A stretch of DNA of 64,000 bases from a virus. The position numbers were made by a program, and so were the translations under genes. The stretch spans positions 1-64,000 of the IMG/VR virus record IMGVR_UViG_3300042291_001557; one strand, written 5' to 3'. This document shows positions 38,199-57,401 of this stretch, piece by piece. The notes under the pieces are model-generated. The model made no database searches. It was given only the letters and a program-made list of their open reading frames with translations, and was not told the DNA's origin. Every line of letters begins with the position of its first letter. Positions within the stretch are counted from its first letter, which is position 1.

Positions 38199-38417
38199 AT
38201 GCGTGAACAAATAGGCAAAAACCAAAAATCTAGTCCTACTGACTTTTTAAAATCAGATACAGAATTTGCGCCGACTACACTTCAACGCGAGCGTTACTCA
38301 ATCTGCAAGGAATGCCCAGAACTTACGAAAGTTACAAAGCAATGCAAGCAATGTGGTTGTTTTATGAACTTAAAAGTGAAGCTTGGTCATGCAGTCTGCC
38401 CACTAGGTAAGTGGTGA
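38199..38417 (+). CDS. Small Cys-rich (CxxC...CxxCGC...CP..KW) protein
   Basis: RYSICKECPEL...QCKQCGCFM...CPLGKW; TAATGT 6 nt before the ATG. Confidence 0.75.
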   Translation: MREQIGKNQKSSPTDFLKSDTEFAPTTLQRERYSICKECPELTKVTKQCKQCGCFMNLKVKLGHAVCPLGKW

Positions 38418-39473
38418 TTTCAGCTCGTAGAAACCTTTGCCCCACAAAGTCATAAGGCGAGTGAAGTACTTTTCATAGAGAAGCGCATTTGTTTCCAAGC
38501 CGAACCTATCGACCGCATACTCACGAATGGCCTTGCGGTCCAAGCTCGGTGCCGCAACTGCTGCGTCAATGAATTCCTGCAATGTCCTGCAGCGAAAGCC
38601 GTTGACCCCATGAACTACGTTTTCGGGAAAAGCGCCCCAATCGGTTGTGATAACCGGAGTGCCACAGGCCATCGCCTCAGCCACAACTAAACCAAAAGGC
38701 TCGGTGTAAATAGTTGGCACAAATGAGGCAATTGCCCCACCCATGAGCCTTGCTCGCTCTTCGGTTCCAACCACCCCAACATACTCTCCGTAAGCAGGCG
38801 GAGTTCCCTGTCCAGCGACCACCAGACGCTTCCCAAGGGCCTTACAGACGTCTGCGGCTATCTGATAGCCCTTTCGCTCTATAAGGCGTCCTATGAACAA
38901 ATAGTAGTCATCTGGGGTTTCCCTGAATGGGAAGTCATTGATGTCCACATGGCCCGGAATTACGTCGTCATAGAACTGCCCGTCTACGTCATGTGGGTTG
39001 GTGACCGCTGCTCCGTAGCAGACATGCATCCATGCGTAGGACTCAAAAACCTTGTATTTGGCAAAGATGCCACCATAGCCAACCTCAAACTCCACGGTCA
39101 TATTGTTGGGAAAGGCGTCGGCTACTCCCTTGTGTGCCAGCCCGCCAATAACGCAAATAAAGTCTTTTGGTTGGATTCTTTTACCTATCTCGGCAATGAT
39201 GTTCTTATTCATATTCTGCCAATGGGGCAAGGAATAGTCAAAAGAGGCGAGAGTGTAGTGGTTCCCGTTTAAGGACTGAAGACGCTCTTCTTCGGTGATG
39301 CACATAACGTGCTCAGTGCAGGGGGCTTCATTAAACTCCCCGCTGTACAAGAAAACTTCATGACTCAAAGACGTCATCATTATTGCAAACTTACGGACAT
39401 TCTCCGTAAACGCACATGACGTAAATTCTTTTGTCGTATTTGTGTGGGGGAGGCTAATTAGGTGAAATCTCAT
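38403..39473 (-). CDS. Glycosyltransferase, GT-B fold (GT4-like)
   Basis: LFIGRLIERKG, EPFGLVVAEAMACGTPVITTDWGAFPE. Confidence 0.92.
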   Translation of the reverse strand: MRFHLISLPHTNTTKEFTSCAFTENVRKFAIMMTSLSHEVFLYSGEFNEAPCTEHVMCITEEERLQSLNGNHYTLASFDYSLPHWQNMNKNIIAEIGKRIQPKDFICVIGGLAHKGVADAFPNNMTVEFEVGYGGIFAKYKVFESYAWMHVCYGAAVTNPHDVDGQFYDDVIPGHVDINDFPFRETPDDYYLFIGRLIERKGYQIAADVCKALGKRLVVAGQGTPPAYGEYVGVVGTEERARLMGGAIASFVPTIYTEPFGLVVAEAMACGTPVITTDWGAFPENVVHGVNGFRCRTLQEFIDAAVAAPSLDRKAIREYAVDRFGLETNALLYEKYFTRLMTLWGKGFYELKSPLT

Positions 39474-39498
39474 TTATGACCTCGATTAAACATTTCTA

Positions 39499-40185
39499 TC
39501 ACGGCATTAGAACTGATGATTTGAAATGCCCGACTTTAACCGCAGTGTCAACAACCGCATCAAAACCTGCATCTTTGGCTCTTTTAAACATTGCCGTATC
39601 TTCTGAAGTGACTATTCTCTTCATTACCCTTCCGTCGCTCGTTATGGTTTCTTCTTCTGCGTCGGCAAAATATGGGTTGTGGATGTTCTCGAAGACGCCC
39701 TGCTTGAAGCATACAAACCCAAAGCCGGCAGCATCTATGTTTACGTACTTTACGCTGGTGTTAAAATCTTCCATCTTTGCAAACCTGTAATCAAATATTG
39801 AGGCTTCCGAATCGTTGGCTGTTTCTTCCAAAATCTGCTGAGGGCTCTTCTTCACGACAACAGACAGGCTTCCGTCGCCCCTAATTACATAAATTCCACT
39901 AGTAATCGTGTGTGGAGATTCAATAAGCGAACAAAAATCAGACACAGACCATTCGATGTCGCTATCTATCCAGAACATGTGGGTGTAGTCAGGGTGCTCA
40001 GTGAGGGCGCGAAATGCCAACTTGTCACGCAGTTGACCAACATGGGCTCCGCTTTCGTGAAGAAAGCTTAGTTCTATATTGTTTTGCGAACAGTATTTAA
40101 CCGTGTCAAAAAAAGACCTTACATAACATGGGGAAAATTCTCGGGCAGGAGTGACGATAACGACATTCCTATTGCTCTGAATCAT
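39499..40185 (-). CDS. Glycosyltransferase, GT-A fold (GT2-like)
   Basis: IVTPA, HMFWIDSDI (DxD), AGFGFVCF, SEDTAMF, VKVGH. Confidence 0.8.
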   Translation of the reverse strand: MIQSNRNVVIVTPAREFSPCYVRSFFDTVKYCSQNNIELSFLHESGAHVGQLRDKLAFRALTEHPDYTHMFWIDSDIEWSVSDFCSLIESPHTITSGIYVIRGDGSLSVVVKKSPQQILEETANDSEASIFDYRFAKMEDFNTSVKYVNIDAAGFGFVCFKQGVFENIHNPYFADAEEETITSDGRVMKRIVTSEDTAMFKRAKDAGFDAVVDTAVKVGHFKSSVLMP

Positions 40186-40954
40186 CTGTCAAATCTTTGC
40201 TTTGGGCTTCCGTCCATGTGAACTCGGTTTTTGGTTCCTCAAACACTTCGTGGTTAATAGTATTTACTGGCGTGTCGTCAGTATTTTCCTCAAAGTCCAA
40301 ACTCGTCGTGACAAAACAGCTAATTATCCACTTGTCCGAAGAATAAGGGACCAATCCCATGTGTGGGTGAGTCCAACTTGTAGGAAACAAAACAATTTTA
40401 CCGATTTCCGCATCGACAGAACAATCATGAATTCTAAAACTTGTCCCCCCGCCATCGGTAACGGTATTTAGGTAGACGACGACAGCTAAAACTCTTGTGT
40501 GGTTTTTGCCGTTTTCGTCCGGCCTTGGATAGTCCCATGGTAAACCGTCGACATGCTCTCTATAGAAACCGTCATTTTTAAAGTACCTCTGAATTCTTAA
40601 TCCAGTAATGTCCAGATTCGGGACAGACCAGAATTGTGGAAACATTTGGATGTAATCATTTATGCACGACCATATGCGCGCATAGAGGTACTCACTGACT
40701 GCCGCATACTGGTGGTAATACTTGGTGGAATCAACCGTGTATATATTTGGGTCCATCAACCCAGTGTCCATACAGCGTTTAATGCCTGTATTCACGCCAC
40801 CTATAGTCGGCCCCTGAGTAAAAAAGCCAACGTTTAAAAAATCTTCCAAAAGGTTAGACACTAAAGATTCACATCTTTCTGCATCTAGAGCCTCCTTGTA
40901 TTCGGCTATATATGAATATTTTCCAAGAGGAAAAGATGCTTTGGTTAATCCCAT
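40169..40954 (-). CDS. 2OG-Fe(II) oxygenase (prolyl-hydroxylase-like)
   Basis: RIQRY...EHVD...RVLAVVVYLN...GGGTSF...FPTSWTHPHMG...KW; ATG 40954 overlaps the upstream stop. Confidence 0.88.
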   Translation of the reverse strand: MGLTKASFPLGKYSYIAEYKEALDAERCESLVSNLLEDFLNVGFFTQGPTIGGVNTGIKRCMDTGLMDPNIYTVDSTKYYHQYAAVSEYLYARIWSCINDYIQMFPQFWSVPNLDITGLRIQRYFKNDGFYREHVDGLPWDYPRPDENGKNHTRVLAVVVYLNTVTDGGGTSFRIHDCSVDAEIGKIVLFPTSWTHPHMGLVPYSSDKWIISCFVTTSLDFEENTDDTPVNTINHEVFEEPKTEFTWTEAQSKDLTDDSEQ

Positions 40955-41724
40955 TTGCGTTGTTCCTTTCTGTATTTGCCCCTGCGCCAACTAGGGAGAA
41001 GAGGAATTGGTCCACCAAAACCTCTTTCGTAAATAAGCTTAAATACGTTCTCGTCACCAACGTGCATTTTTGAAACATTATCAGAACGTTTAAAAAAAGT
41101 CATTTGGGCAATAGGGGTCCCCTGAGGAATGTAGAACTCTTTGTCCGTCAACACGTTTAAAATTATATTGACCGTATGGTAATAATCCGTGTTTATTACT
41201 CCCGGGATTACGTCAAACTCGGGCCTTGGATTAAGAAGCGAACCAGTCAGAATGCTTGAATATCCTTTTGGCGTCATAAAGCAAAACGGATTCCCAAGCT
41301 TTATGTATTGCCCTTCGCCAACAGATGGGTTTCTTCTTTCCGTAAACGGACAGTCCCCTGTTTGTTTTCTTTCAAAATGCTGTATTGAGCCCATAATTTT
41401 TATGTTTTTTCTGTCGACATTAAACTCAGACTGAATGTCAATACCATTGGGATGAGGCCTTACTCGTAGGTCGGCCCACAATGGGATGGTCACACCGTTA
41501 TGCATCAGGTCTTGTCCGCCAGGGCAATACCTATAACCGTCCTCTAGAGGGGTTTTGGTCGTCCAGTCGTCTTTGGAGAACTTGTTCATGTAGGGCATAA
41601 TATCTTCATCGCCTAACAACCTATTGTCTTCTGCGGTTATTAATATTTCCCCTGGCTTCAACTTGGGTAACTGGTTTACCCTGGATACGCCATCTAGATA
41701 AACAACATTTTTAGAAGATTTCAT
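40945..41724 (-). CDS. DUF6065-like protein (cassette A)
   Basis: RYCPG...GVTIPLWAD...KLGNPF..MTPKGYS...PGVINTDYYH...GTPIAQ..FKR; paralogue of 50916-51710. Family name from recall. Confidence 0.6.
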   Translation of the reverse strand: MKSSKNVVYLDGVSRVNQLPKLKPGEILITAEDNRLLGDEDIMPYMNKFSKDDWTTKTPLEDGYRYCPGGQDLMHNGVTIPLWADLRVRPHPNGIDIQSEFNVDRKNIKIMGSIQHFERKQTGDCPFTERRNPSVGEGQYIKLGNPFCFMTPKGYSSILTGSLLNPRPEFDVIPGVINTDYYHTVNIILNVLTDKEFYIPQGTPIAQMTFFKRSDNVSKMHVGDENVFKLIYERGFGGPIPLLPSWRRGKYRKEQRKWD

Positions 41725-43147
41725 GGTGGTATACGGTTTCAAGGTTCATGTTTGATTGTCTTATTTCGGAGAGACTAGATGAAGCATAGTGCCGATTCTG
41801 ATAATAATCAAGAGACCGAGAACATGATTCCTTTGTTATCAAACCCTGCCCTTGCGCCACATGCCAGAAGTGCGCTATCTGAAAAAGTTCATATCCACTC
41901 TGAGGGACGTCATTGGTGGAAGGGGGCCTTTCTGACCACAACTCTAAGAGCTCGGAAAGCAAAGGGGACCTTGGGGCACTTGCTGCGTCTTTCCAGAAAC
42001 TGGTATCCCTTCTGTCCGATATGTAATGCATGCTCACCATGGCTATGAGGTTCTCGTGAAAACTTTCCATAATCGAATTGTACTTTCGGGAAAGAGACGT
42101 AGAGCCGGGTTTGAAAAATGGAATAAAACTAGATAGCGCCTTAGCCTGCTGAATTGCCGTAGAAATACTCGTAGCCTCAAGTGGCTCCATAAAAGAACTG
42201 CTCAACCCAATGGCAACACAGTTGTTTACCCACTGCTTACTGGTGTACCCAGGATTAAACTTTATAACTCTTGGCTTATCGAGAACATGACCAGTGACTT
42301 GTTCTATCTCTTTTATTGCTTGCTCTTCGTCTAGATGACCAGATGAGAAGACGTAACCATTCCCACGTCTTTCCTGGGTAGGAATCTCCCACATCCAACC
42401 AGACGACATGGCGATAGCCCTGGTGTACTGCCTTATCAGACCGTTCGGGTCAGGTTTTGTCGGGAAAGGTATAGCCGTATCCGTAAGTAAATATCGTGAT
42501 GCATCCACCCATTTGGCTTCGTCAAAATTCTTAATTAGGAACTTTGAAAACCCCGAAGCGTCTATCCAGAAATCAGAATAATATGTTTCTGAATTTGACG
42601 CAACCGACTGTATGTACCCGGTTTCATCAATCAAAGAAGAGACTAAGTCATCTATGAAAATCTTTATATTTTTCCTGGAACAAATTTTTTGAAGATAATG
42701 ATTCAGCTTAAATGTGTCAAAATGATATTGATTTGTGTTTCTATGGATATGTTCTGATTTGACTACTTTTGTTTCAATAAACCCAGGATGAGTTATTGTG
42801 TTGGTGAGCAGCTTGCCTTGCTCATGAATGTATTCATACAGAGGTATGTTTTCATTTTTAATAAAATAACCACTAATACTGTGAAAATAATCAGGAGTGT
42901 GATTGGTCCATTTCTCAAACCGAATACCAAGTTTGTGCGTAGCGGCAGTTTCCCTGACCATCTCATCAATGTCTATTCCTGCTATTTCAACAAAGCTATG
43001 CCAATGCTCCGTACTACCTTCGCCAACTCCAATTATGCCAATAGTTTTTGACTCAATAATTGAAACGTCAAGCAAGGGAAGCTTGCTTTTTAGAACTATC
43101 GCCGCAACAAGACCAGCAGTCCCTGCCCCTACAACCATAACCTTCAT
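41711..43147 (-). CDS. Flavin-dependent halogenase, tryptophan-halogenase family (cassette A)
   Basis: GAGTAG FAD motif, IGVGEGS, ATHKLGIRF (catalytic Lys), YHFD, GWMWEIP, FMEPLEATSI (catalytic Glu). Confidence 0.92.
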   Translation of the reverse strand: MKVMVVGAGTAGLVAAIVLKSKLPLLDVSIIESKTIGIIGVGEGSTEHWHSFVEIAGIDIDEMVRETAATHKLGIRFEKWTNHTPDYFHSISGYFIKNENIPLYEYIHEQGKLLTNTITHPGFIETKVVKSEHIHRNTNQYHFDTFKLNHYLQKICSRKNIKIFIDDLVSSLIDETGYIQSVASNSETYYSDFWIDASGFSKFLIKNFDEAKWVDASRYLLTDTAIPFPTKPDPNGLIRQYTRAIAMSSGWMWEIPTQERRGNGYVFSSGHLDEEQAIKEIEQVTGHVLDKPRVIKFNPGYTSKQWVNNCVAIGLSSSFMEPLEATSISTAIQQAKALSSFIPFFKPGSTSLSRKYNSIMESFHENLIAMVSMHYISDRRDTSFWKDAASAPRSPLLSELLELWSERPPSTNDVPQSGYELFQIAHFWHVAQGQGLITKESCSRSLDYYQNRHYASSSLSEIRQSNMNLETVYHHEIF

Positions 43148-43150
43148 GAG

Positions 43151-43777
43151 CTACCTAAGCCATGTTACGAAGGCATACTTGATGCCAAAATTGTTTTCCT
43201 CTACGGGGTGAGCTGTATGTCTATACAAATAGTTTGACGGAAACAAAACCATAGAACCAGCAGAGGGAGAAACCTTTATGCCGAAATAATCAAACTCCAA
43301 TTCGCCTCCGTTGAAGTCGTCATTAAACCACCCGACACAGCTAAGAATGCGACCATTTTCCGAGCCGTAATCACAATGAGAACTGTATTCTCCACCGCTT
43401 GGGTATTTTAATACTCTGTATCCTTCGTCGGTAGACAGCTCAAGGCTGTACTTATCACGATAATGATAAACCGCTGCGTCTATGTTCTTGAATATTTTTT
43501 TCCAGAGTACTGCTGCCGGTTTCATTCTTGGAATATTTTCTATTTTGTTAGCTTGCAGGGGGTTCAACTCCATTTGTACAGACATTCTGTACGATGAAAT
43601 TTTACCGTTGTCAGTTTCTGAATTTTCCCACATCAAGTATGGCCAGTCTTCTTTTGACTCAGATTCAATAAGTTCTATGATGTTTTCAGGTGAAAATATG
43701 TTTTTGTACATAATTACGCCAGGGGCCAACTCTACTATTTCTGAGCTTTCTATAATTTCGTTAACAGACATCATCAT
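43151..43777 (-). CDS. 2OG-Fe(II) oxygenase (cassette A)
   Basis: LKY...HCD...GGELEF...FPSNYLYRHTAHPV...KY..VTW. Confidence 0.9.
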   Translation of the reverse strand: MMMSVNEIIESSEIVELAPGVIMYKNIFSPENIIELIESESKEDWPYLMWENSETDNGKISSYRMSVQMELNPLQANKIENIPRMKPAAVLWKKIFKNIDAAVYHYRDKYSLELSTDEGYRVLKYPSGGEYSSHCDYGSENGRILSCVGWFNDDFNGGELEFDYFGIKVSPSAGSMVLFPSNYLYRHTAHPVEENNFGIKYAFVTWLR

Positions 43778-44204
43778 TTACCGTAAAATCAAAAGTGTGA
43801 ATAATCTTATCTTTATACCAAACGCAAATAGCACAATCTCCCGGCGCACCAAAATTAAGCCCAAAATGAATAGAATGCCTATTTATTTTTTTTACATCTA
43901 GAAATCTGTGCCCATTTGGCTCTCCCACAATGTAGAGAAAAAGACTAATTTTTACATCATCATCAAATACGAGAAATTCGTTTTTGTAATCAATCCGAAT
44001 TAATTGATTTACCTTGACAGGAGAATGAGAAAACTTTATTGAATGCTCTGTTGGGATAGAAATCGGACGAGGGGTGTCTCTGTCAAAAATCAAATCTTTG
44101 GTTCTCTCGTTGTCGCCGATAAGTATGGGGGCGACGTGGAGTCTAGATAATTCCTCTGCTGTGGGAAGCATTTCTTCTGTTGGACAAAAAATTACTGTAT
44201 CCAT
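43761..44204 (-). CDS. Hypothetical protein (cassette A; paralogue of 53802-54218)
   Basis: ATG 44204 with TATTGT 8 nt upstream; AEELSR...ILIGDN resembles AIELAK...IQVGEDN. Confidence 0.65.
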   Translation of the reverse strand: MDTVIFCPTEEMLPTAEELSRLHVAPILIGDNERTKDLIFDRDTPRPISIPTEHSIKFSHSPVKVNQLIRIDYKNEFLVFDDDVKISLFLYIVGEPNGHRFLDVKKINRHSIHFGLNFGAPGDCAICVWYKDKIIHTFDFTVNDDVC

Positions 44205-44230: not shown

Positions 44231-44479
44231 TTATTCCGCCTGAAGTCGAGCAAGGCTGGCCCGTGTAGTCTTTATTCCTACAACCAACATTCGGAAATGA
44301 GTTGAATACATATAAGACTCGCCGTCTTCAGGAACTTCAAAAGTATCCATGTCTACGGTGAGAGGGTCTATCCCTGACTGTATGCAAGTTGTGAAAAAAT
44401 TAGAGTACGCGGTCTCTAGCGCTTTGGTAAGGAGATTTACTGTTTCTTCTGTCGTTATTTCGTCTCTTAGTTCTGGCAT
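44231..44479 (-). CDS. Small acidic helical protein (cassette A; paralogue of 54215-54442)
   Basis: GIDPLTVD resembles NVDPETFD; GAGG RBS; directly after the Gly-rich gene. Confidence 0.7.
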   Translation of the reverse strand: MPELRDEITTEETVNLLTKALETAYSNFFTTCIQSGIDPLTVDMDTFEVPEDGESYMYSTHFRMLVVGIKTTRASLARLQAE

Positions 44480-47357: not shown

Positions 47358-47693
47358 CTAAAGGGTGTAGCCGTTTACCGTTACCGTAATAGCGGCATTC
47401 TCACTGACAAAATAAATAATGTCGTCTAGGGCTAGAGAAGTGTTCGTGTTGTAAGTAATCGTCTCTTTAGGGGAAACGCTCATTTGTGACAAGATTCTTT
47501 GCGCAGCAACATCGCTGGATACGGTATTAGCGGCGACACCTACTGTTATCCAGTATGCGGTACTTGCGCTTGTGTTGCAGATGATTATCTGCTTTACTAC
47601 TCCGGCAGCCGTGGCTGTATAGGCACCTGTAGCCCCAGAACTAAAAGTTGTAACGGTGGCCTTGGGACCGAACCGATAAGGAACTACTGACAT
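47358..47693 (-). CDS. Small beta-sandwich connector (cassette A)
   Basis: YTA...VVKQIIICNT...ETI...ITVTVNG; paralogue of 56770-57144 and 60148-60453. Confidence 0.75.
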   Translation of the reverse strand: MSVVPYRFGPKATVTTFSSGATGAYTATAAGVVKQIIICNTSASTAYWITVGVAANTVSSDVAAQRILSQMSVSPKETITYNTNTSLALDDIIYFVSENAAITVTVNGYTL

Positions 47694-47933
47694 TTAGATG
47701 ACCTCCATGAGAAATATTACTTCAGTATCGTCTGCACGCACGTTAGTCGGGCCACTTGCTCCGGGGACTCCAGACGAACCTACAGGACCAGTTGGGCCTG
47801 AAGGACCTTCAGGGCCCTGGGTCCCACCAATCCCAACATTGAGTGCCCACTTGCCGTCCGTGTACGACCAGGTTTTGCCGTCAACTGTAAAGTTGTCACC
47901 GGGAGCAGGGGAGTTGGGAAAATCGATAGCCAT
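47694..47933 (-). CDS. Short collagen-like adapter (79 aa), MAIDFPNSP...FLMEVI (cassette A)
   Basis: ATG 47933 lies 7 nt after TATAAT; the N-terminus is near-identical to that of 48301-49317. Confidence 0.75.
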   Translation of the reverse strand: MAIDFPNSPAPGDNFTVDGKTWSYTDGKWALNVGIGGTQGPEGPSGPTGPVGSSGVPGASGPTNVRADDTEVIFLMEVI

Positions 47934-50915: not shown

Positions 50916-51710
50916 TTACTTCCTTTTGAGTATTTTTTTAATTATACCTTTTTGTTCAGACTGCTTATCTAAAGCATTATCAACAATTACCCTATTGCGA
51001 CGATAAGGACCAGCAGTCCCATCGCTTGGGGCAACGTGCCCTGTCCCAAACCCTGTTGTAGCAACGTATTTAAAGTAAGACTCGTCGTTGAAGATTATTT
51101 CCCCAAAGTCGGAGTTGCGCTTAAACGGAACTACCTGACACATCGGTGTTCCGTATTTTATGGAAAACGGCCTATCACCAATAGGGTTAATAACCATGTT
51201 TGCTAAGTGGTAGAAATCCGTATGAACGATTGACGGAACGAGCGTGTAGTCCTCGTTTGGTTCCCAGTACGGTGGGAGAATCATCGACGACCAGCCTGGG
51301 GCTGTTTCAAAGCGCCACGGATTAATTATCTTTGGGTATTGGCCCGTTGCTACTTTTCTGACAGCAGTCATTGGGCATTCACCGGTGGAGTGAGCAGAAA
51401 ATCCTGATATTGAATTTATCCCAGCTTGTGGTGCAAAATCGTCCCCCGCCGTTTCCCATGTCTCGCCATTTGGGTCTAGACGGAATCTAAAATTTGTCCA
51501 CATAGGAATAGTGACGCCAGCAGTAAGAAAATCTATTGTTCCAGCGCATTTGCGAATGGAGCCCTGATGCTTACCAATTTTCTTAAACCACATAGGAGGA
51601 TTCTGTACTGTGTTAACAAATGGAGGCATCTCCATCAATCTGTTATCCATCGGTGTGAATCTTATTTGTCCAGGTTTTACTGGCGGCATCTTGGTCATTA
51701 TTGGTTCCAT
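50916..51710 (-). CDS. DUF6065-like protein (cassette B)
   Basis: PMWFKK...IRKCAG..DF..AGVTIPMW...KIINPWRFETAPGWS...VHTDFYH...GTPMCQVVPFKR. Confidence 0.65.
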   Translation of the reverse strand: MEPIMTKMPPVKPGQIRFTPMDNRLMEMPPFVNTVQNPPMWFKKIGKHQGSIRKCAGTIDFLTAGVTIPMWTNFRFRLDPNGETWETAGDDFAPQAGINSISGFSAHSTGECPMTAVRKVATGQYPKIINPWRFETAPGWSSMILPPYWEPNEDYTLVPSIVHTDFYHLANMVINPIGDRPFSIKYGTPMCQVVPFKRNSDFGEIIFNDESYFKYVATTGFGTGHVAPSDGTAGPYRRNRVIVDNALDKQSEQKGIIKKILKRK

Positions 51711-53206
51711 TCTTTGTCAATCAACACAATTTCCCGCAAAGCAGTAGCGTGGTCGACTTGTTCGCCACTATTCCGATTTGCTTTGTATTCTGCAATTTTT
51801 TTCTCAACGCTTTGCCGTATCCCAAGCCTATTGAGGGCAGTGGTGGCCGCATCTGGATTGATGGCGTTTTGACCTTGAGCAACATGCCACAAGTGTGCCG
51901 ACAAAAACATCTCGCCGTTTAATGCACTAAAATCAAATCTGGTTGGTGGACGCTCCGCCCATAACTCAATCATCTCCTGCAATTCTTCATTGAGTGGCGT
52001 TACTGACATTTCCCGCCAAAATGGAGTGTCCTGCCTATCCGAATAATAATGGAGACGAACCATCGTAAGAATATTGCGCATCATCAGCTTCATGCTGGCG
52101 TTAAAGTGTTTCTGAGATGCTGTGTGCCCAGGTTGATACGAAGCAAGATAGGGGACAATTTGTTTTACTTGCTGAATTGTTGAACCTATGCTAGAGGCCT
52201 CTAATGGCTCCACAAAAGAAGAAGCCAGCCCGATTGCACAACAGTTCTTTACCCATGTGTTCTTTAGATAGCCCGCGTCAAAATTAATAACACGATGGGC
52301 TTCAATCTTGTAGCCGGACATCTCTTCGGCTTCACGTACCGCTTCTTCTTCGGTTATAAATTTAGACGAAAATACGTATCCGTTTCCACGCCGTTCTTGA
52401 GTGGGGAGTTCCCAGAGCCACCCGGAAGAGGCAGCACGAGCACGTGTGTAGGGACGAATTCTTCCGTTGGGGTCAGATTCCGTAGGAAACGCAATTGCCG
52501 TATCGCACAAAAGATGGTCACTGAAAGAAGACCAATCATCTGCCCCAAGTTTTTTCATCAATATTCTGCTAAAGCCACTAGCGTCAAACCAAAAGTCTGA
52601 CGCAATGGTTTCATTTGATTTGGTTACTACGGATAGTATATTTCCGTTTTCGCTATCAAGATTAATAGAATCTACTTCTGCCTCAATAAACTCAATCTGT
52701 CTCTTGAACGCCAGAGTAATTAGATAATTATTTAGCTTATGCGTATCAAAATGGTATTGATTTGTAGACCGGTGCATTCCCGCTTTGCTGATTTTGTCTT
52801 TTACCAATGCAACGTTCGTAATCTGTGGGGTCAAAAGCTTCCCCTCTTCCAGATATTGCATATAAGTTGCGTGTGCTCCAAAAGCATAAATATCATCTAC
52901 GTCACCTACGCTATGAAAATAGTCAGGATTTTTTGTTGTCCAGTTTTCAAATCTAATTCCGTACTTATGCGTACCAGCTGTCTCGACAAGCATTTCTTCA
53001 ATAGGGATGTCACATAGGTCAGCAAACTGACGCCAGTGTTCCGTGCTTCCCTCCCCCACGCCAATAATCCCAATTTTTGAGGACGATACAACTTTTATTC
53101 CCGCTATGGGAAAGGCTTTGCGCAAAATCAAAGAAGCAAGTAGTCCTGCTGTTCCAGACCCGACGATGGTAATAATAAATGGTTTTTTTTCTTGTTTGTA
53201 ATCCAT
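51698..53206 (-). CDS. Flavin-dependent halogenase, tryptophan-halogenase family (cassette B)
   Basis: GSGTAG, IGVGEGS, GTHKYGIRF, YHFD, GWLWELP, FVEPLEASSI. Confidence 0.92.
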   Translation of the reverse strand: MDYKQEKKPFIITIVGSGTAGLLASLILRKAFPIAGIKVVSSSKIGIIGVGEGSTEHWRQFADLCDIPIEEMLVETAGTHKYGIRFENWTTKNPDYFHSVGDVDDIYAFGAHATYMQYLEEGKLLTPQITNVALVKDKISKAGMHRSTNQYHFDTHKLNNYLITLAFKRQIEFIEAEVDSINLDSENGNILSVVTKSNETIASDFWFDASGFSRILMKKLGADDWSSFSDHLLCDTAIAFPTESDPNGRIRPYTRARAASSGWLWELPTQERRGNGYVFSSKFITEEEAVREAEEMSGYKIEAHRVINFDAGYLKNTWVKNCCAIGLASSFVEPLEASSIGSTIQQVKQIVPYLASYQPGHTASQKHFNASMKLMMRNILTMVRLHYYSDRQDTPFWREMSVTPLNEELQEMIELWAERPPTRFDFSALNGEMFLSAHLWHVAQGQNAINPDAATTALNRLGIRQSVEKKIAEYKANRNSGEQVDHATALREIVLIDKEWNQ

Positions 53207-53223: not shown

Positions 53224-53805
53224 CTAGCAAAACCATGTCACTAGAGAGTGCTTAACGCCTTCAAGGACGGGATGGGCAACATGCAAGTAGGGGAAATTTG
53301 AAGGAAACATAAGAACCGAACCTGTTTTCAGCTTGACGGTCACATCAAAGGTGGGAAACTCTAATTCTCCGCCACTTTCGGCTTCCCCAAGGGATGCGAC
53401 AATACTAAAAACACGCCTATTGTCTCTCCAGTGGTCATAGTGAGCACGATATTCTCCTCCTTGGTAGTATTTGAGGATTGCAAATTCTTCAGGGATGGCG
53501 TCCTCTATCATGAATTCTTGACGGTAATCTTCGGCGACCGCCATGCAGGGTAAAAAAATGTTTTTTTGGTAGAAATCAGATAATTCAGTTTTTTCATACG
53601 GAGGGAGCAAAGACGTAAGAACACAATTAATAGAAGTTCTAGTATCGGTCGTTGACCCTGCTCCGGTTTTACCGTAGTCCCATTCGAGGCCGGACCACTC
53701 GTTCGCAGTTTCTTCTTCTACTTTAGCTAAGAACTCAATCGCTACTGATTCAGGGAACACGTCTTCATACAGGGATACGCACGGTGCTATTTTTGTATTT
53801 TTCAT
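53224..53805 (-). CDS. 2OG-Fe(II) oxygenase (cassette B)
   Basis: LKY...HYD...GGELEF...FPSNFPYLHVAHPV...KH..VTW. Confidence 0.9.
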   Translation of the reverse strand: MKNTKIAPCVSLYEDVFPESVAIEFLAKVEEETANEWSGLEWDYGKTGAGSTTDTRTSINCVLTSLLPPYEKTELSDFYQKNIFLPCMAVAEDYRQEFMIEDAIPEEFAILKYYQGGEYRAHYDHWRDNRRVFSIVASLGEAESGGELEFPTFDVTVKLKTGSVLMFPSNFPYLHVAHPVLEGVKHSLVTWFC

Positions 53806-54218
53806 ATAACCCTAAATTCCCCAGAACAATAGTCTTCTGTTTCAGAAACAGTAATTTTATACTTCCAATTTCCCAGACTAACGTATCTTGAACGAAAACG
53901 CAAGCTATGAACCTGACGAACGGAAGGTTTTGTAATTACCGTTTCCCCGGTTTCTGAAGTAGCAATCAATCGAGCATCGCGTCCAAAAAAAACAAATTCG
54001 TCTGTCAGGTCAATGCAGAAAACGTATCCAGACTCAACGGTAGGCGGTATTTCTACCACTTTTTTGTATGGGACACTAACGATGCAAATATCTGTGTATT
54101 TGTTGTCTTCCCCAACCTGTATGGACAGCATTGTTTTTTTTGCCAACTCTATGGCCTTTAAGGGGATTTCATTGTTTTCCAGAAGTAGGGATACTGGAAC
54201 ATGAATAAATCTTTTCAC
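53802..54218 (-). CDS. Hypothetical protein (cassette B; paralogue of 43761-44204)
   Basis: GTGA/ATGA coupling on both sides; same slot as in cassette A. Confidence 0.65.
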   Translation of the reverse strand: MKRFIHVPVSLLLENNEIPLKAIELAKKTMLSIQVGEDNKYTDICIVSVPYKKVVEIPPTVESGYVFCIDLTDEFVFFGRDARLIATSETGETVITKPSVRQVHSLRFRSRYVSLGNWKYKITVSETEDYCSGEFRVI

Positions 54219-54442
54219 GACAGTTCGGTGATTTTTACTTTTACCCGATTGAGAGCATTTACTAACTCTTGAATACGAATGTACTCACCAGTGAAATTTG
54301 TTCCAGTAAAGCCAACTTCTTCATCAAAAGTTTCTGGGTCAACATTCAAACGAACAAGAAGCGTATACAGCTCTTTTTCTATTCCGGATTTTGAACTTTG
54401 ACAAAGTTCAATTTTTTCTGCTTGCGTTAAGTTGAATTCCAT
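54215..54442 (-). CDS. Small acidic helical protein (cassette B)
   Basis: AGGAG RBS; LNVDPETFD motif. Confidence 0.72.
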   Translation of the reverse strand: MEFNLTQAEKIELCQSSKSGIEKELYTLLVRLNVDPETFDEEVGFTGTNFTGEYIRIQELVNALNRVKVKITELS

Positions 54443-54450: not shown

Positions 54451-56061
54451 CTACGAATTAATTAATACGTACGCTGCACCCGCGGAGGCAACATAGTTGT
54501 CTGAGTCGACCGTTAGTCCTGCGCGAGTATCGTAAGTGATTGTGTTTGCTATTGAGTCCGTGACGATAAGGATAGCACCGCCGCCACCGGCCCCACCACG
54601 TTTTCCATTTGGACCAGCAATCGCTGGCCCTCCTGCTCCTCCTGCCCCTCCTGCTCCGCCTGGATATACTGTTGGCGCAACATGTGTTGAAACGCTATTG
54701 GGGTGATGAGAATGTCTTGCGGTAGTCCCTGAGGGTCCTGCATAAAAAACGGCCCCAACGCCAACTCCGTTATTGTGATGAGGGTGGTTATTGCCAAAGT
54801 GAATATGGTTGTCACTCCCTCCGGCATTACCTATCCAATCCATGTGGTGATTATGACCCGTGGTCGCGCCGTGTGAATGGCCACCATGGCTGTTTGGTTT
54901 TTGATGATAGTGAGGAAATGGATAATGATGAGTTATCTGAAAATAAGCGTGCCACCAGTGCGGTTCCCAGTGGTGTGCTCCACCGTGGGGTCCATCGTTG
55001 TGGGGGGAATGGTGATGGCCATTGTGGTGGTGATGAGGGGTCGCGTGGTGATGCGGGGTTCCTCTATGAAAGTGGTGAGGGGTCGAGTGGGCACCATGAG
55101 CCCCATGCTTGGCGTCGGTAAGGGCATGAACATGCTCTTGAACGTTTTCGTGTTGCTGGACGTGCTGCCGAACGCCATGCTTATGCATGTTTGAGTGATT
55201 AGTGTAATAGTGATGATGGTCAGGGTTATGGGTTGCGGGATGCGCAACGTTAACGTTCGGATTGGGGTGTGAGTAAGCAGGGGCGGGTGTTCCCGTACCA
55301 CCCGCAGTACCCGCAGTACCTGCGCCACCCGCCGTTCCTGCGACACCCGACATTCCCAGTGAAATTATTTTCCCTGTTCCTACAACCGTTTTAGCTACTA
55401 CACAAACAACTGCTCCACCTGCTCCGCCAATTCCACTGACTCCGGAAGTTCCAGGCGTCCCAGCATTTCCAGTTCCACCAGTCCCCCCTCTGCCTCCGAC
55501 TGCACCAACAGTGTGTGCGTTTGGAGCGTACGAACCAGCCGCTCCTGCTGTGCCTGGACTTCCTGGAGACGGTGCGGCTCCTGCGGTTGGAGCACCAGCA
55601 GTACCTCCAACTCCTCCACCTATGTTTTGAAAACCTGACGGGGTTGGAACTAAGCCACCAGCCATCGCATCGATTGACTTAAATAAATACAGCGGGAGCG
55701 GATTGCCGCCTGGGTTTGTTCCGCCTCCGCCCACTCCACCAGCGTTGTAGGTAATAGGAACGGTGTTTGTTCCCACAGTAGTTTTAGTTGTTACTGCGGT
55801 CGGCTCTCCAACTACACCTGCAGTAACAGAACCGGAACCAATATAGCCATTTAGCGTTAGTGTGTTTTTAACAAAAACTCTGTAGCCGTTTGTCTTTAAC
55901 AAAACTCCCGAGTTTACAGTGAGGTTGTTGTAGTACATATCGCTCGTTATGGAAGTATCTGACGAAACAGTAACGTTTCCATCAGTACCCTGACCATAGA
56001 TGTCGTCGTTACCTAGTCTTTGCGAAAAGCTTTGAGTCCTAAACTTCTCTATGCCAGCCAT
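54451..56061 (-). CDS. Glycine-rich putative adhesin/fibre tip, 536 aa, with an extremely His-rich insert (cassette B)
   Basis: Same scaffold motifs as 44489-46618; insert about 54664-55278 has roughly 54 His in 205 residues (hand count). Confidence 0.78.
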   Translation of the reverse strand: MAGIEKFRTQSFSQRLGNDDIYGQGTDGNVTVSSDTSITSDMYYNNLTVNSGVLLKTNGYRVFVKNTLTLNGYIGSGSVTAGVVGEPTAVTTKTTVGTNTVPITYNAGGVGGGGTNPGGNPLPLYLFKSIDAMAGGLVPTPSGFQNIGGGVGGTAGAPTAGAAPSPGSPGTAGAAGSYAPNAHTVGAVGGRGGTGGTGNAGTPGTSGVSGIGGAGGAVVCVVAKTVVGTGKIISLGMSGVAGTAGGAGTAGTAGGTGTPAPAYSHPNPNVNVAHPATHNPDHHHYYTNHSNMHKHGVRQHVQQHENVQEHVHALTDAKHGAHGAHSTPHHFHRGTPHHHATPHHHHNGHHHSPHNDGPHGGAHHWEPHWWHAYFQITHHYPFPHYHQKPNSHGGHSHGATTGHNHHMDWIGNAGGSDNHIHFGNNHPHHNNGVGVGAVFYAGPSGTTARHSHHPNSVSTHVAPTVYPGGAGGAGGAGGPAIAGPNGKRGGAGGGGAILIVTDSIANTITYDTRAGLTVDSDNYVASAGAAYVLINS

Positions 56062-56062
56062 T

Positions 56063-56770
56063 TTAAACCAACTGCATGTAATTTACAGTGCCAGGATTCT
56101 GTCCAGTTACATCTGTTGTGACGTTTGCAGGAAGACCGGCTGCCGACGAAACCACAAGGACAACTCCCCCGCCAGCAGGGGCAGTTGCTTTTGCTGAAAT
56201 CTCGGCCGTGCCGCTTAGTGGACCCGAGATATACCTTGCGGCGACTATTACTATTCCGCCACCTTTTTGTCCAGCGCCACCGGCTCCACCACGAAGATAT
56301 GTTGGGCCACCCGAAGCAGTAAGAGAATATCCTAGAACCGCATTTCTTGGTTGCTGGAAATACTTAGCTCCTCCCAAGGAGTCTAATGGGGCAGTTGCCG
56401 TATAGCCAGTTGCTGAACCACCAAGAGAATGAGCAACAGCCAAGGAAGCTACCTGTCCCTGGAGTATTGAGCCACTGTCCGAATACCCAGTTATGTATCC
56501 AATACGGGAAGATGTTCCTAGTGTGAGTATGTTTTTGACAAACAAACGATATCCGTTTGGTTTTAAATGAATGTTGTCATTAATCGTTAGGTTGAACAGA
56601 TACAAGTCCGCAACCATGGAATAAACGTTTGATGCCGGAATCATCCCCAAAACAGTGGATGAGCCATTAAGGGTCGCTGAACCATCAGCCCCAGAACCGT
56701 AAACAGAATCGGCAGCATCAATGAATTGCCCAAAAGCATTCAAGGCTGGATAGCGGGCCACGCCAGCCAT
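56063..56770 (-). CDS. Short glycine-rich scaffold protein (cassette B)
   Basis: MAGVARYP...YGSGADG...NYMQLV. Confidence 0.75.
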   Translation of the reverse strand: MAGVARYPALNAFGQFIDAADSVYGSGADGSATLNGSSTVLGMIPASNVYSMVADLYLFNLTINDNIHLKPNGYRLFVKNILTLGTSSRIGYITGYSDSGSILQGQVASLAVAHSLGGSATGYTATAPLDSLGGAKYFQQPRNAVLGYSLTASGGPTYLRGGAGGAGQKGGGIVIVAARYISGPLSGTAEISAKATAPAGGGVVLVVSSAAGLPANVTTDVTGQNPGTVNYMQLV

Positions 56771-57144
56771 TATGTCTCTTCTATGCCGACGATTGTGATG
56801 TTTACCGAAGTGGCAACACTGGCAAACGCAGTCAGCTGGTCACTGTTTGTAGCATTTGCTGTCGAACCGTTATTGTTTAAAACCAACGAACAATTGAAAG
56901 CCATCGTCTCATTTGCTGCAATTGCAACAGAACTAAGAATGTCATGCGTTGCTACTTCTGCTACACCTAGCGGTTTGAGTCGCACGGTAACGGTCTTTGC
57001 TGCGGACGTAGTATTAGTGAGAATGATTTGCTTTACGACGGTCGTTGTGTCGAGCGGAACTGTGTAGTAGACAACAGACGTTGCCGACAGTTGCTGTGGC
57101 GACGGAGCCCCACTAACATAAAGACGTTTTTGAACTATGGCCAT
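56770..57144 (-). CDS. Small beta-sandwich connector (cassette B)
   Basis: YTVP..TTTVVKQIILTNT...AANET...VNITIVG.EE; TAATG couplings. Confidence 0.75.
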   Translation of the reverse strand: MAIVQKRLYVSGAPSPQQLSATSVVYYTVPLDTTTVVKQIILTNTTSAAKTVTVRLKPLGVAEVATHDILSSVAIAANETMAFNCSLVLNNNGSTANATNSDQLTAFASVATSVNITIVGIEET

Positions 57145-57401
57145 TAGAAAACCTCCATGGATAAGCGGATGTAGTTATCCCTAACAAGAGAGCTAGGTAC
57201 ATACTGACTTCCGTCATAAGCAACTACCTGGTCAACCGCGGCACCGGCAGTATCTATTTGAGCAAGGGTAATAGAACCGTTAACCACGGCTGTTGGAATA
57301 GTTATAACCGTCCATGCGTATCCGGTATATTTCCACGTTTTACCAGAGTCTGTAAAAGTGTCTCCCGTAGTGGGCGAGTTGGGAAAGTCAATAAGAGGCA
57401 T
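57144..57401 (-). CDS. Short adapter (85 aa), MPLIDFPNSP...LSMEVF (cassette B)
   Basis: ATG 57401, 2 nt after the upstream stop; shares both termini with 47694-47933. Confidence 0.72.
   Translation of the reverse strand: MPLIDFPNSPTTGDTFTDSGKTWKYTGYAWTVITIPTAVVNGSITLAQIDTAGAAVDQVVAYDGSQYVPSSLVRDNYIRLSMEVF

What the first reader, a model, noticed from the sequence alone, without database searches (positions are those of the whole stretch)
38403..57401. Nine-gene cassette present twice: each Gly/His-rich fibre tip has its own halogenase and oxygenase tailoring set
Seen: two minus-strand blocks with identical gene order. B = 57401-57144, 57144-56770, 56770-56063, 56061-54451, 54442-54215, 54218-53802, 53805-53224 (2OG-Fe), 53206-51698 (halogenase), 51710-50916 (DUF6065-like). 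A = 47933-47694, 47693-47358, 47355-46621, 46618-44489, 44479-44231, 44204-43761, 43777-43151 (2OG-Fe), 43147-41711 (halogenase), 41724-40945 (DUF6065-like). Most genes abut or overlap. Scaffold parts are conserved (MAGV.RYP...NYMQLV; RLGND..YGQGTDG), but the His/Trp/Tyr/Asn/Pro-rich inserts of the long protein are unrelated between copies. Established: PrnA/RebH-family enzymes halogenate aromatic rings, some on ribosomal peptides (MibH); 2OG-Fe(II) enzymes hydroxylate Pro/Asn/Asp/His in proteins; both families occur in phage variable regions. Inference: keeping a diverged enzyme set beside each diverged tip suggests cognate enzyme-substrate pairs, a RiPP-like system that chemically decorates or cross-links a virion adhesin instead of making a small molecule. 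I do not know of a description of this module.
Basis: partly seen in the sequence, partly recalled or inferred. Interest (0 to 1): 0.93.

Follow-up and report, generated by a model that had tools for sequence, protein, structure and literature searches.

The report
Fibre-tip cassette with dedicated halogenase
A lake-water phage of Actinobacteria carries two diverged copies of a nine-gene block in which a glycine/histidine-rich tail-fibre tip protein is followed by its own oxygenase, halogenase and dUTPase-like protein. The same block recurs in about a hundred other lake phages, which suggests, but does not prove, that these enzymes chemically tailor the fibre.

Summary
All nine gene positions of block A (47933-40945) and block B (57401-50916) are homologous and in the same order. 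The block is a widespread unit. In 55 non-redundant viral or metagenome loci with enough downstream DNA, the B3/B4 fibre pair has a halogenase and a B9 protein downstream in 53 and a 2OG oxygenase in 50. The other two loci keep the enzymes next door in a rearranged form. Starting from B9, 60 of 60 loci have the fibre pair and the halogenase. The block also sits in actinophages that share no detectable portal or sheath with this one. Ten long relatives carry one halogenase each, so two copies look unusual.

- The "DUF6065-like" protein has a dUTPase fold.
- Trp cannot be the universal target, because five B4 proteins have none.
- The His-rich insert is a family trait with conserved motifs, so metal binding is likely.

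The variable part of B4 co-varies with the halogenase and B9 more than with its own N-terminus.

That the enzymes modify the fibre protein remains an inference (about 0.45). Rival readings are a small-molecule or nucleotide pathway, or modification of the host receptor. I found no paper describing the module. This scan's earlier notes on it are unchecked first-reader notes on this same genome; none concerns other DNA.

The parts
57144..57401 (-). B1: 85-aa protein with the fibre N-terminal 'plug' motif (PNSP..G..F...GKTW.Y.G..W)
   Evidence: jackhmmer links B1, A1 and B12
56770..57144 (-). B2: 124-aa protein, phrog_20100, function unknown; precedes the fibre pair in many loci
56063..56770 (-). 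B3: 235-aa Gly-rich beta-helix scaffold protein (MAGV.RYP...NYMQLV family; at least 679 unnamed relatives)
   Evidence: model of paralogue A3
54451..56061 (-). B4: 536-aa long tip protein. B3-like N- and C-terminal rungs, Gly-X-Y tracts and a roughly 200-aa insert of about 25% His (about 54664-55278)
54215..54442 (-). B5: 75-aa acidic protein present in 55/55 loci; guessed to be an assembly factor (inference only)
53802..54218 (-). B6: 138-aa protein of unknown family (43/55 loci)
53224..53805 (-). B7: 2OG-Fe(II) oxygenase, prolyl-4-hydroxylase-like
   Evidence: Pfam PF13640 E 3e-11; nearest solved structures are Bacillus anthracis P4H, E 1.5e-4
51698..53206 (-). B8: flavin-dependent halogenase, Trp_halogenase family, catalytic motifs intact
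   Evidence: Pfam PF04820 E 1e-100; alignment to RebH; invariant residues
50916..51710 (-). B9: dUTPase-fold protein whose start overlaps the end of the halogenase gene by 13 nt
   Evidence: AF2 pLDDT 84; Foldseek E 3e-5 to dUTPases; phrog_7084
49794..50912 (-). B10: 372-aa unknown protein, an optional cassette member (33/55 loci, before the halogenase or after B9)
48301..49317 (-). B12: collagen-like tail fibre (backbone gene). Its N-terminus resembles A1, which marks the likely joint where cassette A entered
47694..47933 (-). A1: 79-aa plug-motif protein with a short collagen-like run
47358..47693 (-). A2: homologue of B2
46621..47355 (-). A3: 244-aa beta-helix scaffold, 57% identical to B3
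44489..46618 (-). A4: 709-aa long tip protein with two Gly-X-Y arms and aromatic/His/Asn-rich loops unrelated to those of B4
44231..44479 (-). A5: homologue of B5
43761..44204 (-). A6: homologue of B6
43151..43777 (-). A7: 2OG-Fe(II) oxygenase
   Evidence: Pfam PF13640 E 2e-13
41711..43147 (-). A8: flavin-dependent halogenase
   Evidence: Pfam PF04820 E 9e-99
40945..41724 (-). A9: dUTPase-fold protein
   Evidence: Pfam dUTPase 28.9 bits, above the 22-bit cut-off
40169..40990 (-). A10: second 2OG-Fe(II) oxygenase. A second oxygenase gene follows B9 in 11 of 55 loci
39499..40185 (-). A11: phrog_1574 protein with weak glycosyltransferase similarity; travels with A-type cassettes
38403..39473 (-). 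A12: GT4/GT-B glycosyltransferase. A backbone gene, also present after single-cassette loci, so not cassette-specific

Best explanation
This is a self-contained, horizontally exchanged receptor-binding-tip module of freshwater actinophages, present twice in this phage in two old, diverged versions. Shown: small adaptor proteins (positions 1, 2), a beta-helix scaffold protein (3) and a long paralogue (4) are followed in one tightly packed late operon by two small proteins (5, 6), a P4H-like 2OG-Fe(II) oxygenase (7), an intact flavin-dependent halogenase (8) and a dUTPase-fold protein (9). The long paralogue carries Gly-X-Y stalks and a His-rich, probably metal-binding, insert. Inferred: genes 5-9 are maturation factors for protein 4. 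On this reading the oxygenase hydroxylates Pro (or Asn/His) in the Gly-X-Pro-Gly tracts. The halogenase, working with its co-evolving dUTPase-fold partner and host-reduced flavin, halogenates or oxidatively cross-links aromatic or imidazole side chains (Tyr/His, and Trp where present) of the insert. This would harden or tune the tip that contacts the host. Each tip version would keep matched enzymes because the enzymes must recognise a fast-diverging substrate.
For: Linkage in both directions. In 55 non-redundant loci with at least 5.5 kb after gene 4, B5 is present in 55, the halogenase in 53, B9 in 53 and a 2OG oxygenase in 50. The two exceptions keep the enzymes adjacent in another arrangement: an inverted block in L088 and an upstream block in L138. 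Starting from B9, 60/60 loci have B3/B4 and the halogenase. The linkage survives rearrangement, with 16 gene orders seen. It also crosses phage backbones: G004 (203 kb) and G008 (94 kb, complete) have no detectable homologue of this phage's portal or sheath, yet they carry the cassette, and all are WhiB-carrying actinophages. When a second tip is present, a second full enzyme set comes with it, whereas ten long relatives have one halogenase each. Distances for the variable part of B4 correlate with the halogenase (r 0.74) and B9 (0.75) more than with B4's own N-terminus (0.57). The partial Mantel values are 0.62 against 0.27. The halogenase and B9 co-vary at r 0.91-0.93. The enzymes diverge faster (58% and 49% mean identity) than scaffold B3 (72%) or flanking B11 (79%). 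The enzymes lie inside the fibre operon with overlapping stops and starts, between fibre genes on both sides. The halogenase's catalytic Lys and Glu are invariant. B7's nearest solved relatives are collagen-type prolyl hydroxylases, and protein 4 has Gly-X-Pro-Gly tracts. The number of oxygenase genes rises weakly with Pro% and GxPG count of protein 4 (rho about 0.25, p about 0.02, not corrected for relatedness). Flavin-dependent halogenases that act on ribosomal peptides and whole proteins are established (MibH, SrpI, ChlH: PMC12615548, PMC10858898).
Against: There is no direct evidence of any modification. Everything lying between two conserved recombination anchors (the B3/B4 N-terminus and B11) would co-transfer and co-vary whether or not it is functionally tied. 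Near-identical halogenases (0-10% distance) go with B4 variable parts that differ strongly in score (L016/L017/L021/L023/L027/L060), so strict sequence-specific pairing is unlikely. Five B4 proteins have no Trp, the residue targeted by the peptide halogenases named above, as I recall. A flavin-dependent halogenase acting on protein His, or on Tyr of a folded protein, would be unprecedented as far as I know. Three loci lack the oxygenase. The role of a dUTPase-fold protein in protein tailoring is unexplained. It keeps dUTPase motifs III and IV and a motif-V-like GFGxG, its distant relatives lie next to ribonucleotide reductase genes, and four near-complete relatives have no other dUTPase; all of this points to nucleotides. 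More distant phage halogenases are not fibre-linked. That B3 and B4 are virion proteins rests on context and a modest beta-helix model (pLDDT 66, Z 5-6.4).
Confidence: 0.45

Rival explanations
1. The enzyme trio (oxygenase, halogenase, dUTPase-fold protein) is a late-expressed small-molecule or nucleotide pathway that merely resides in the variable island beside the fibre-tip genes. Possible roles are halogenation or hydroxylation of a base, nucleotide or metabolite, or B9 acting as the phage's own dUTPase or as a sanitiser of halogenated dNTPs made by leaking hypohalous acid. It co-transfers with the tip only because it lies between the same recombination anchors.
For: B9 has a true dUTPase fold and keeps motifs III, IV and V-like. 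Its distant homologues in cyanophage S-RIM4 and in haloviruses lie next to ribonucleotide reductase genes. Four near-complete relatives have no other dUTPase. In HTVC008M and P-SSM2 a halogenase is paired with PhyH/2OG dioxygenases with no fibre gene in the unit, so the halogenase-dioxygenase pairing can exist without a tip. The literature treats phage halogenases as auxiliary metabolic genes whose natural substrate is unknown.
Against: A nucleotide or metabolite pathway has no reason to be duplicated along with each tip. It has no reason to stay beside the B3/B4 pair through inversions and permutations and across unrelated backbones, or to diverge faster than the structural scaffold. It lies inside the fibre operon, not with replication genes or in an auxiliary-gene island as in cyanophages. 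B9 lacks the motif-II arginine (my own reading of the alignment, not a tool result) and scores far below the NCBIfam dut cut-offs.
Confidence: 0.27
2. The enzymes act on the host rather than the virion. They would modify a cytoplasmic precursor of the cell-envelope receptor that the adjacent tip recognises. This would block superinfection or prevent progeny from sticking to debris, in the way T5 Llp is encoded next to, and matched with, its receptor-binding protein.
For: This would also explain why the enzyme set co-varies with the variable tip, why each tip keeps its own set, and why the whole block moves between phages of one host group. Glycosyltransferases follow cassette A.
Against: Nothing marks these enzymes as envelope-directed. 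As far as I know, no receptor-masking system uses a halogenase. Expression from the late fibre operon is late for exclusion. The dUTPase-fold partner is unexplained on this reading as well.
Confidence: 0.12
3. The two-copy arrangement is an assembly chimera of two co-occurring phage strains that each carry one cassette.
For: Ten long relatives have a single halogenase. Logan contig pieces break inside the collagen-like repeat at 48835-48868, where depth rises.
Against: Depth of A and B is equal in four independent runs. The junction is orderly: backbone genes B11 and B12, then A1 to A11, then backbone gene A12, as in single-cassette relatives. A 134,255-bp contig from another source appears to hold close relatives of both A3 and B9.
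Confidence: 0.04

Closest known systems
Peptide- and protein-modifying flavin-dependent halogenases of RiPP pathways (MibH, SrpI, ChlH)
   Same: Same enzyme family (PF04820, catalytic Lys/Glu). The enzyme is encoded next to a ribosomally made polypeptide that is the presumed substrate, and those enzymes accept large peptides or proteins (PMC12615548, PMC10858898, 10.1101/2025.01.12.632611).
   Different: The presumed substrate here is a 536-709-aa structural protein, not a leader-core precursor. I recognised no leader, recognition element, protease or exporter. Those enzymes target Trp, while several B4 proteins have none. The obligatory dUTPase-fold neighbour has no counterpart that I know of.
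Tail-fibre tip plus co-transferred accessory gene modules (T4 gp37/gp38/gp57A, Mu/P2 fibre plus Tfa chaperone); T2/S16 gp38 Gly-rich adhesin with hypervariable loops (my own knowledge)
   Same: A conserved N-terminal anchor and a variable distal part exchanged together with the downstream genes needed to mature it (pattern seen). A Gly-rich scaffold carries variable aromatic-rich loops.
   Different: The accessory genes here are redox enzymes rather than only chaperones. No sequence or fold match to gp38 or Tfa was found.
T4 gp37/gp12 metal-binding HxH needle (my own knowledge; also raised in earlier scan notes)
   Same: Dense HxH/HH pairs in a fibre tip, so metal coordination is the simplest reading of the His-rich insert. 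Conserved motifs such as H-N-D-G-P-H-G and C-C occur within it.
   Different: About 50 His in a roughly 200-aa insert on a beta-helix scaffold, with no homology to gp37. Metal binding was not tested.
Cyanophage and pelagiphage 'tryptophan halogenase' auxiliary genes (PrnA-like; VirX1 of Syn10)
   Same: Phage-borne members of the same family, 25-38% identical (PDB 6qgm). They are often beside 2OG/PhyH dioxygenases. Their natural substrate is unknown.
   Different: Those genes lie in auxiliary-gene islands (talC, hli, tRNAs) or between packaging genes, not in a fibre operon. No B3/B4 or close B9 homologue accompanies them.
Viral collagen-type hydroxylation (PBCV-1 prolyl 4-hydroxylase, mimivirus L230 hydroxylase-glycosyltransferase; my own knowledge) and Bacillus anthracis P4H
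   Same: A P4H-like 2OG oxygenase is encoded by a virus that also encodes Gly-X-Y proteins. Cassette A is followed by an extra oxygenase and glycosyltransferases.
   Different: Similarity to P4H is weak (E 1.5e-4). Hydroxyproline was not shown. A12 is a backbone gene, not cassette-specific.
Nereis jaw protein Nvjp-1 (Gly/His-rich, Zn-binding, halogenated and cross-linked; PMC13120676 and Birkedal 2006 cited there)
   Same: A functional analogy only: a Gly- and His-rich structural protein whose hardness comes from metal coordination plus halogenation and cross-linking.
   Different: An animal extracellular material. No homology; the halogenating agent there is not a flavin-dependent halogenase as far as I know.

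Membership tests
Flavin-dependent halogenase (Trp_halogenase, PF04820) | Profile match over the whole domain above the curated cut-off | tested here: met
   B8 338 bits and A8 332 bits against a cut-off of 21
Flavin-dependent halogenase (Trp_halogenase, PF04820) | GxGxxG FAD motif, WxWxIP motif, catalytic Lys (RebH K79) and Glu (RebH E357) | tested here: met
   Aligned to RebH. G16/G18/G21, K81, W263, P268 and E336 are invariant and W265 is at least 90% conserved in 24 cassette halogenases
Flavin-dependent halogenase (Trp_halogenase, PF04820) | Halide-dependent halogenation of a defined substrate; a partner flavin reductase | not testable with these tools
   No Flavin_Reduct gene in this phage or in four relatives, so a host reductase is presumed
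2OG-Fe(II) oxygenase, prolyl-4-hydroxylase-like (PF13640) | Profile match above the cut-off; HxD...H iron triad | tested here: met
   B7 44.5, A7 51.8 and A10 39 bits against a cut-off of 27. HYD/HCD and a distal His are visible in the sequences
2OG-Fe(II) oxygenase, prolyl-4-hydroxylase-like (PF13640) | Hydroxylates Pro in collagen-like X-Pro-Gly | tested here: inconclusive
   Nearest solved structures are P4Hs, but only at E 1.5e-4. Weak trend between oxygenase gene number and GxPG count
dUTPase superfamily (PF00692) | Trimeric-type dUTPase beta-barrel fold | tested here: met
   B9 model pLDDT 84. Foldseek E 3e-5, target-normalised TM 0.6-0.68 to many dUTPases
dUTPase superfamily (PF00692) | Five conserved motifs and a family-level score | tested here: inconclusive
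   A9 passes the Pfam cut-off (28.9 against 22) but B9 gives no Pfam hit. NCBIfam dut scores 22 against a cut-off of 103. Motifs III (TD[FY]Y), IV (GTPxAQ) and V-like (GFGxG) are conserved; the motif-II Arg is not
   No such hit for A9 or B9 even at E up to 5. None of the 120 listed relatives of the family carries a Pfam domain
RiPP biosynthetic system | Short precursor with leader and core, recognition element, leader protease or export | tested here: inconclusive
   The presumed substrate is a 536-709-aa protein. Pfam, PHROGs and NCBIfam show no protease, RRE or transporter in the cassette. B5, B6 and B10 remain unassigned
Phage tail fibre / receptor-binding protein | Virion location and receptor binding | not testable with these tools
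   Context only: directly downstream of a phrog_5838 virion structural protein and among collagen-like fibre genes. The A3 model resembles adhesin and tailspike beta-helices at Z 5-6.4
Collagen triple-helix repeat (PF01391) | Gly-X-Y repeats scoring above the cut-off | tested here: inconclusive
   A4 scores 23.7 and A1 22.5 bits against a cut-off of 27.2. Uninterrupted Gly-X-Y runs reach 32 triplets in B4 homologues

The most novel reading that the evidence does not exclude
The cassette is the first dedicated system for post-translational halogenation (plus hydroxylation) of a virus structural protein. On this reading a flavin-dependent halogenase works with an obligatory dUTPase-fold partner on Tyr/His (and Trp) of a metal-binding His-rich fibre tip. 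It would give viral halogenases of this clade a natural substrate and add protein halogenation to the ways phages build and diversify host-recognition organs.
Probability: 0.35. Interest if true: 0.92.

Novelty: new variant of a known kind. Interest (0 to 1): 0.78.

Why it matters
Phage-encoded flavin-dependent halogenases have been known since the first cyanomyovirus genomes, and one of them (VirX1) is a useful biocatalyst. Their natural substrates and their value to the phage are still unknown, and they are routinely filed as auxiliary metabolic genes. This clade shows an essentially obligatory link, robust to rearrangement, to one protein family. That turns the open question into a direct experiment: does protein 4 carry halogen or hydroxyl groups? 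If it does, this would be a new kind of virion maturation. It would also yield a protein-directed halogenase with a new type of partner protein, of interest for late-stage protein and peptide halogenation. And it would give a chemical dimension to host-range evolution in the phages of very abundant freshwater Actinobacteria. If it does not, the dUTPase-fold/halogenase pair still points to an undescribed nucleotide or small-molecule chemistry.

Tried and rejected
- ESM Atlas gave nothing usable for B6 (best score 0.78) or for B10.
- Foldseek of the A3 model against PDB gave no match at E <= 0.001. Only the VIA wide search gave beta-helix matches, at modest Z.
- A3 has no tblastn match in 50,697 phage records, so no cultured carrier of the module was found there.
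- Pfam, PHROGs and NCBIfam give nothing for B3, B5, B6, B10, B11 or B13. B4 has only a weak hit (E 1e-5) to an unknown-function PHROG, and A4 only a sub-threshold collagen hit.
- The promoter and terminator scan found no more sites than shuffled sequence gives, so it says nothing about transcription units.
- No RNA holder was listed among the public runs.
- Weak NCBIfam hits of the halogenases to the protein-modifying flavoenzymes QhpG and LodB lie far below cut-off. I read them as a shared FAD fold, not as evidence.
- A halogenase lies 2-3 kb from the homologous virion structural gene in S-PM2, S-RIM44 and the Sf phages. I rejected this as a fibre link because the halogenase sits on the other strand in an hli/talC/tRNA island.
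- The careful maximum-likelihood trees for the halogenase and B9 did not finish. Only a quick halogenase tree was obtained.
- One 'Actinomycetia' phage record was tallied among the B8 matches at the 1e-5 limit but is absent from the A8 search at 1e-20. I never saw its row, so I do not treat it as a carrier of the module.

Full report
**What the window is.** The window is the first 64 kb of a single 100,256-bp viral contig, which CheckV estimates as 63% complete. It encodes a portal, a large terminase, a tail sheath and several fibre proteins. The portal and terminase are closest to those of Gordonia and Brevibacterium phages. The contig carries two WhiB genes. Its DNA is held almost complete by at least ten lake-water metagenome runs beyond the four runs marked as possible sources. 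It is therefore a freshwater actinophage with a contractile tail. From 63,998 down to 38,403 all genes are on the minus strand and form one block of late structural genes.

**Check of the observation.**
- blastp between the two blocks gives A3/B3 57% over the full length, A8/B8 47%, A9/B9 34% and A7/B7 33%.
- It also gives A2/B2 40% over 60 aa, A4/B4 57% over the first 81 residues only, and A1/B1 62% over 29 aa.
- A5/B5 and A6/B6, which blastp misses, are joined by iterated profile search at E 1e-12 to 1e-26.

So nine of nine positions are homologous and collinear. DNA similarity between the blocks is almost nil, so the second block is old or was acquired separately. Genes abut or overlap; the halogenase and B9 genes overlap by 13 nt.

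The two blocks have equal depth in four independent runs. Tiling is broken only inside a collagen-like repeat. Close relatives of A3 (97%) and of B9 (90%) both report a longest contig of 134,255 bp. A chimeric assembly is therefore unlikely.

**What the parts are.**
- Position 8 is a flavin-dependent halogenase (PF04820, E 1e-100). Aligned to RebH, it keeps GxGxxG, the catalytic Lys, WxWxIP and the Glu. These residues are invariant or nearly so in 24 cassette homologues.
- Position 7, and A10, are 2OG-Fe(II) oxygenases of the Oxy_3 type. Their nearest solved relatives are collagen-type prolyl 4-hydroxylases, though only weakly (E 1.5e-4).
- Position 9 is not DUF6065-like. Pfam shows no such hit even at E 5, whereas A9 passes the dUTPase cut-off. 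An AlphaFold model of B9 (pLDDT 84) matches dUTPases at Foldseek E 3e-5. The family alignment keeps counterparts of dUTPase motifs III, IV and V and adds two invariant Cys. All 120 relatives listed (of 207 found) are unnamed and carry no Pfam domain.
- Position 3 (A3 model, pLDDT 66) resembles beta-helix adhesins, autotransporters, bactofilin and tailspikes at Z 5-6.4.
- Position 4 shares the N-terminal cap and the Gly-rich rungs of position 3. It also carries Gly-X-Y tracts and a large insert.
- A12 is a GT4 glycosyltransferase. A11 is a phrog_1574 protein with weak glycosyltransferase similarity.
- B5, B6 and B10 match nothing known.

**Does the module recur?**
- The A3/B3 family has at least 679 unnamed members.
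- A profile scan of IMG/VR returned 80 loci, plus one from a single-sequence scan. A scan of JGI metagenomes returned 80 more, reaching down to about 41% identity.
- I called genes uniformly with HMMs built from the cassette families. In 55 non-redundant loci with at least 5.5 kb beyond gene 4, B5 is present in 55, the halogenase in 53, B9 in 53 and an oxygenase in 50.
- The two apparent exceptions keep the enzymes next door. In L088 the enzyme block is inverted and lies between two fibre sets. In L138 it lies upstream.
- Sixteen gene orders occur. The oxygenase can lie before the halogenase or after B9, B10 can lie on either side, and a second oxygenase follows B9 in 11 loci. In same-strand cassettes the halogenase is always followed directly by B9; in the inverted block of L088 the two are adjacent in the reverse order.
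- Searching from the enzyme side with the B9 profile, 60 of 60 loci with enough upstream DNA hold B3/B4 and the halogenase.

**Is this only shared ancestry of closely related phages?** No.
- Among ten long relatives (seven at least 90% complete), genome sizes run from 94 to 203 kb.
- Two near-complete relatives (G004 at 96%, G008 at 100%) have no detectable homologue of this phage's portal or sheath, yet they carry the cassette at 55-60% identity. All tested relatives carry WhiB. The block therefore moves between actinophage lineages as a unit.
- Each of the ten has one halogenase, so a double cassette is uncommon.
- In the window the arrangement is B-cassette, B10, B11, B12, B13, A1 to A11, A12. 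Single-cassette relatives show B9, B10, B11, B12, A12 (L028) or A9, A10, A11, B11, A12 (L005).
- A1 resembles the N-terminus of B12 even at DNA level (75% over 122 bp). That is the likely recombination joint through which cassette A entered.

**Co-variation.**
- Pairwise distances of the halogenase and B9 correlate at r 0.91-0.93. Scaffold against enzymes gives about 0.55-0.60. Enzymes against the flanking gene B11 gives about 0.35.
- The variable part of protein 4 tracks the halogenase (0.74) and B9 (0.75) better than it tracks its own N-terminal domain (0.57). The partial Mantel values are 0.62 against 0.27.
- Trees agree that cassette A groups with the A-type loci L005 and L007 for both scaffold and halogenase. 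Elsewhere scaffold and enzyme trees disagree.
- The exchanged unit is thus the variable part of protein 4 plus everything downstream. The conserved N-termini serve as the recombination anchor, which is the pattern known for fibre tips and their chaperones.
- The enzymes diverge faster (58% and 49% mean identity) than scaffold B3 (72%) or B11 (79%). That is unusual for housekeeping-type auxiliary genes.

These statistics fit a functional tie. They are also what simple residence between two anchors would give, and I mark them as suggestive only.

**The insert.**
- Nearly all complete homologues of protein 4 have a window of 14-23 His in 50 residues. The His-rich insert is a family trait, not a peculiarity of copy B.
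- Inserts of B-type proteins share motifs such as H-(N/H)-D-G-P-H-G and C-C, and have an aromatic residue just before the (GGA)n rung.
- A-type inserts (the window's A copy and L005) share a different conserved stretch.
- Metal coordination, as in the HxH needle of T4 gp37 (my own knowledge), is the simplest reading.
- Five proteins have no Trp at all although each has a halogenase. If protein 4 is the substrate, the target must therefore be Tyr or His, at least in those phages. That would be new chemistry for this enzyme family.
- The number of oxygenase genes rises weakly with Pro content and GxPG count (rho about 0.25, p about 0.02, uncorrected for relatedness).

**Comparison with other phage halogenases.** Homologues at 25-38% identity occur in cyanomyoviruses and in pelagiphage HTVC008M. 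There they lie beside PhyH/2OG dioxygenases (HTVC008M, P-SSM2) or in islands with talC, hli and tRNA genes, on the strand opposite the structural genes. No B3/B4 or close B9 homologue accompanies them. Distant B9 relatives in S-RIM4 and in haloviruses lie next to ribonucleotide reductase genes. Four near-complete relatives of this phage have no other dUTPase and no flavin reductase. These facts keep a nucleotide or small-molecule role alive for the enzyme trio.

**Literature.** Reviews and genome papers treat phage halogenases as auxiliary genes of unknown natural substrate (PMC2984593; PMC10452541). One lake actinophage genome paper lists a tryptophan 7-halogenase as an auxiliary metabolic gene (PMC10611076). 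Searches that combined halogenase, phage, tail fibre, oxygenase, prolyl hydroxylase and collagen-like found no description of a fibre-linked module. Peptide- and protein-directed halogenases are established in RiPP pathways. A Gly/His-rich, metal-binding, halogenated structural protein is known from Nereis jaws. That last case is an analogy, not a relative.

**Verdict.** This is a widespread, mobile nine-gene fibre-tip module that survives rearrangement, and this phage carries two versions of it. The mechanistic claim, that the enzymes tailor the tip protein, is the best single explanation (about 0.45), but it rests entirely on genomic context. The main rivals are a co-resident nucleotide or small-molecule pathway (about 0.27) and modification of the host receptor (about 0.12). 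I found no published description.

Noticed in passing
window 49351-49635 (-): B11, a 94-aa protein with predicted membrane helices, is up to 94-95% identical across phages whose neighbouring fibre and enzyme genes are only 50-65% identical (mean pairwise identity 79%). It has no family match. It may be a holin or another strongly constrained membrane protein, and it acts as the downstream anchor of the variable block.
   Followed up: partly
window 57404-60148 (-): The 914-aa virion structural protein directly upstream of cassette B (phrog_5838, E 1e-272) is 43-47% identical over 96-99% of its length to structural proteins of T4-like marine cyanophages such as S-PM2, S-RSM4 and S-RIM44. This indicates that fibre modules are shared between actinophages and cyanophages.
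   Followed up: partly
L088:12300-21063 and L138:3800-12600: Two rearranged versions of the module. In L088 the enzyme block is inverted (with B9 before the halogenase) and lies between the B3/B4 set and a second, different set of small Trp-containing fibre proteins. In L138 the enzymes lie upstream of B2-B3-B4-B5.
   Followed up: partly
L085 (S-RIM4) 4917-5711; L086 (HRTV-5) 4827-5669: Distant homologues of B9 (24-27% identity) in a marine cyanophage and in haloarchaeal tailed viruses lie next to ribonucleotide reductase genes. This hints that the wider family has a nucleotide-related role.
   Followed up: partly
window 47842-47960 vs 49226-49344: A 122-bp stretch is 75% identical between the start of A1 and the start of the collagen-like fibre gene B12. 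It is the probable recombination joint at which cassette A was inserted into a single-cassette backbone.
   Followed up: partly
window 54664-55278 and B4 homologues in L016, L028, L053, L074, L010, L013, L032: Within the His-rich inserts there are recurring short motifs: H-(N/H/S)-(N)-D-G-(P)-H-G, an adjacent Cys-Cys pair, and a Tyr or Trp just before the (GGA)n tract. They suggest a folded metal-binding domain rather than a disordered His tract.
   Followed up: no
window 13089-14228 (+): A gene resembling phosphoadenosine-phosphosulfate reductase (phrog_2302, E 7e-75) sits among the structural genes.
   Followed up: no
window 4489-5805 (+): The large terminase is 42% identical to those of Methanobacterium phages psiM2 and psiM100, as close as to those of Gordonia phages.
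   Followed up: no
genome contig C1:79747-79938 (+) and 92462-92653 (-), outside the window: There are two WhiB-family genes. Each of five relatives tested also has two.
   Followed up: partly
window 20224-25431 (+): A 1,735-aa ORF lies downstream of the sheath gene. It is probably the tape-measure protein or a large tail protein. I did not examine it.
   Followed up: no
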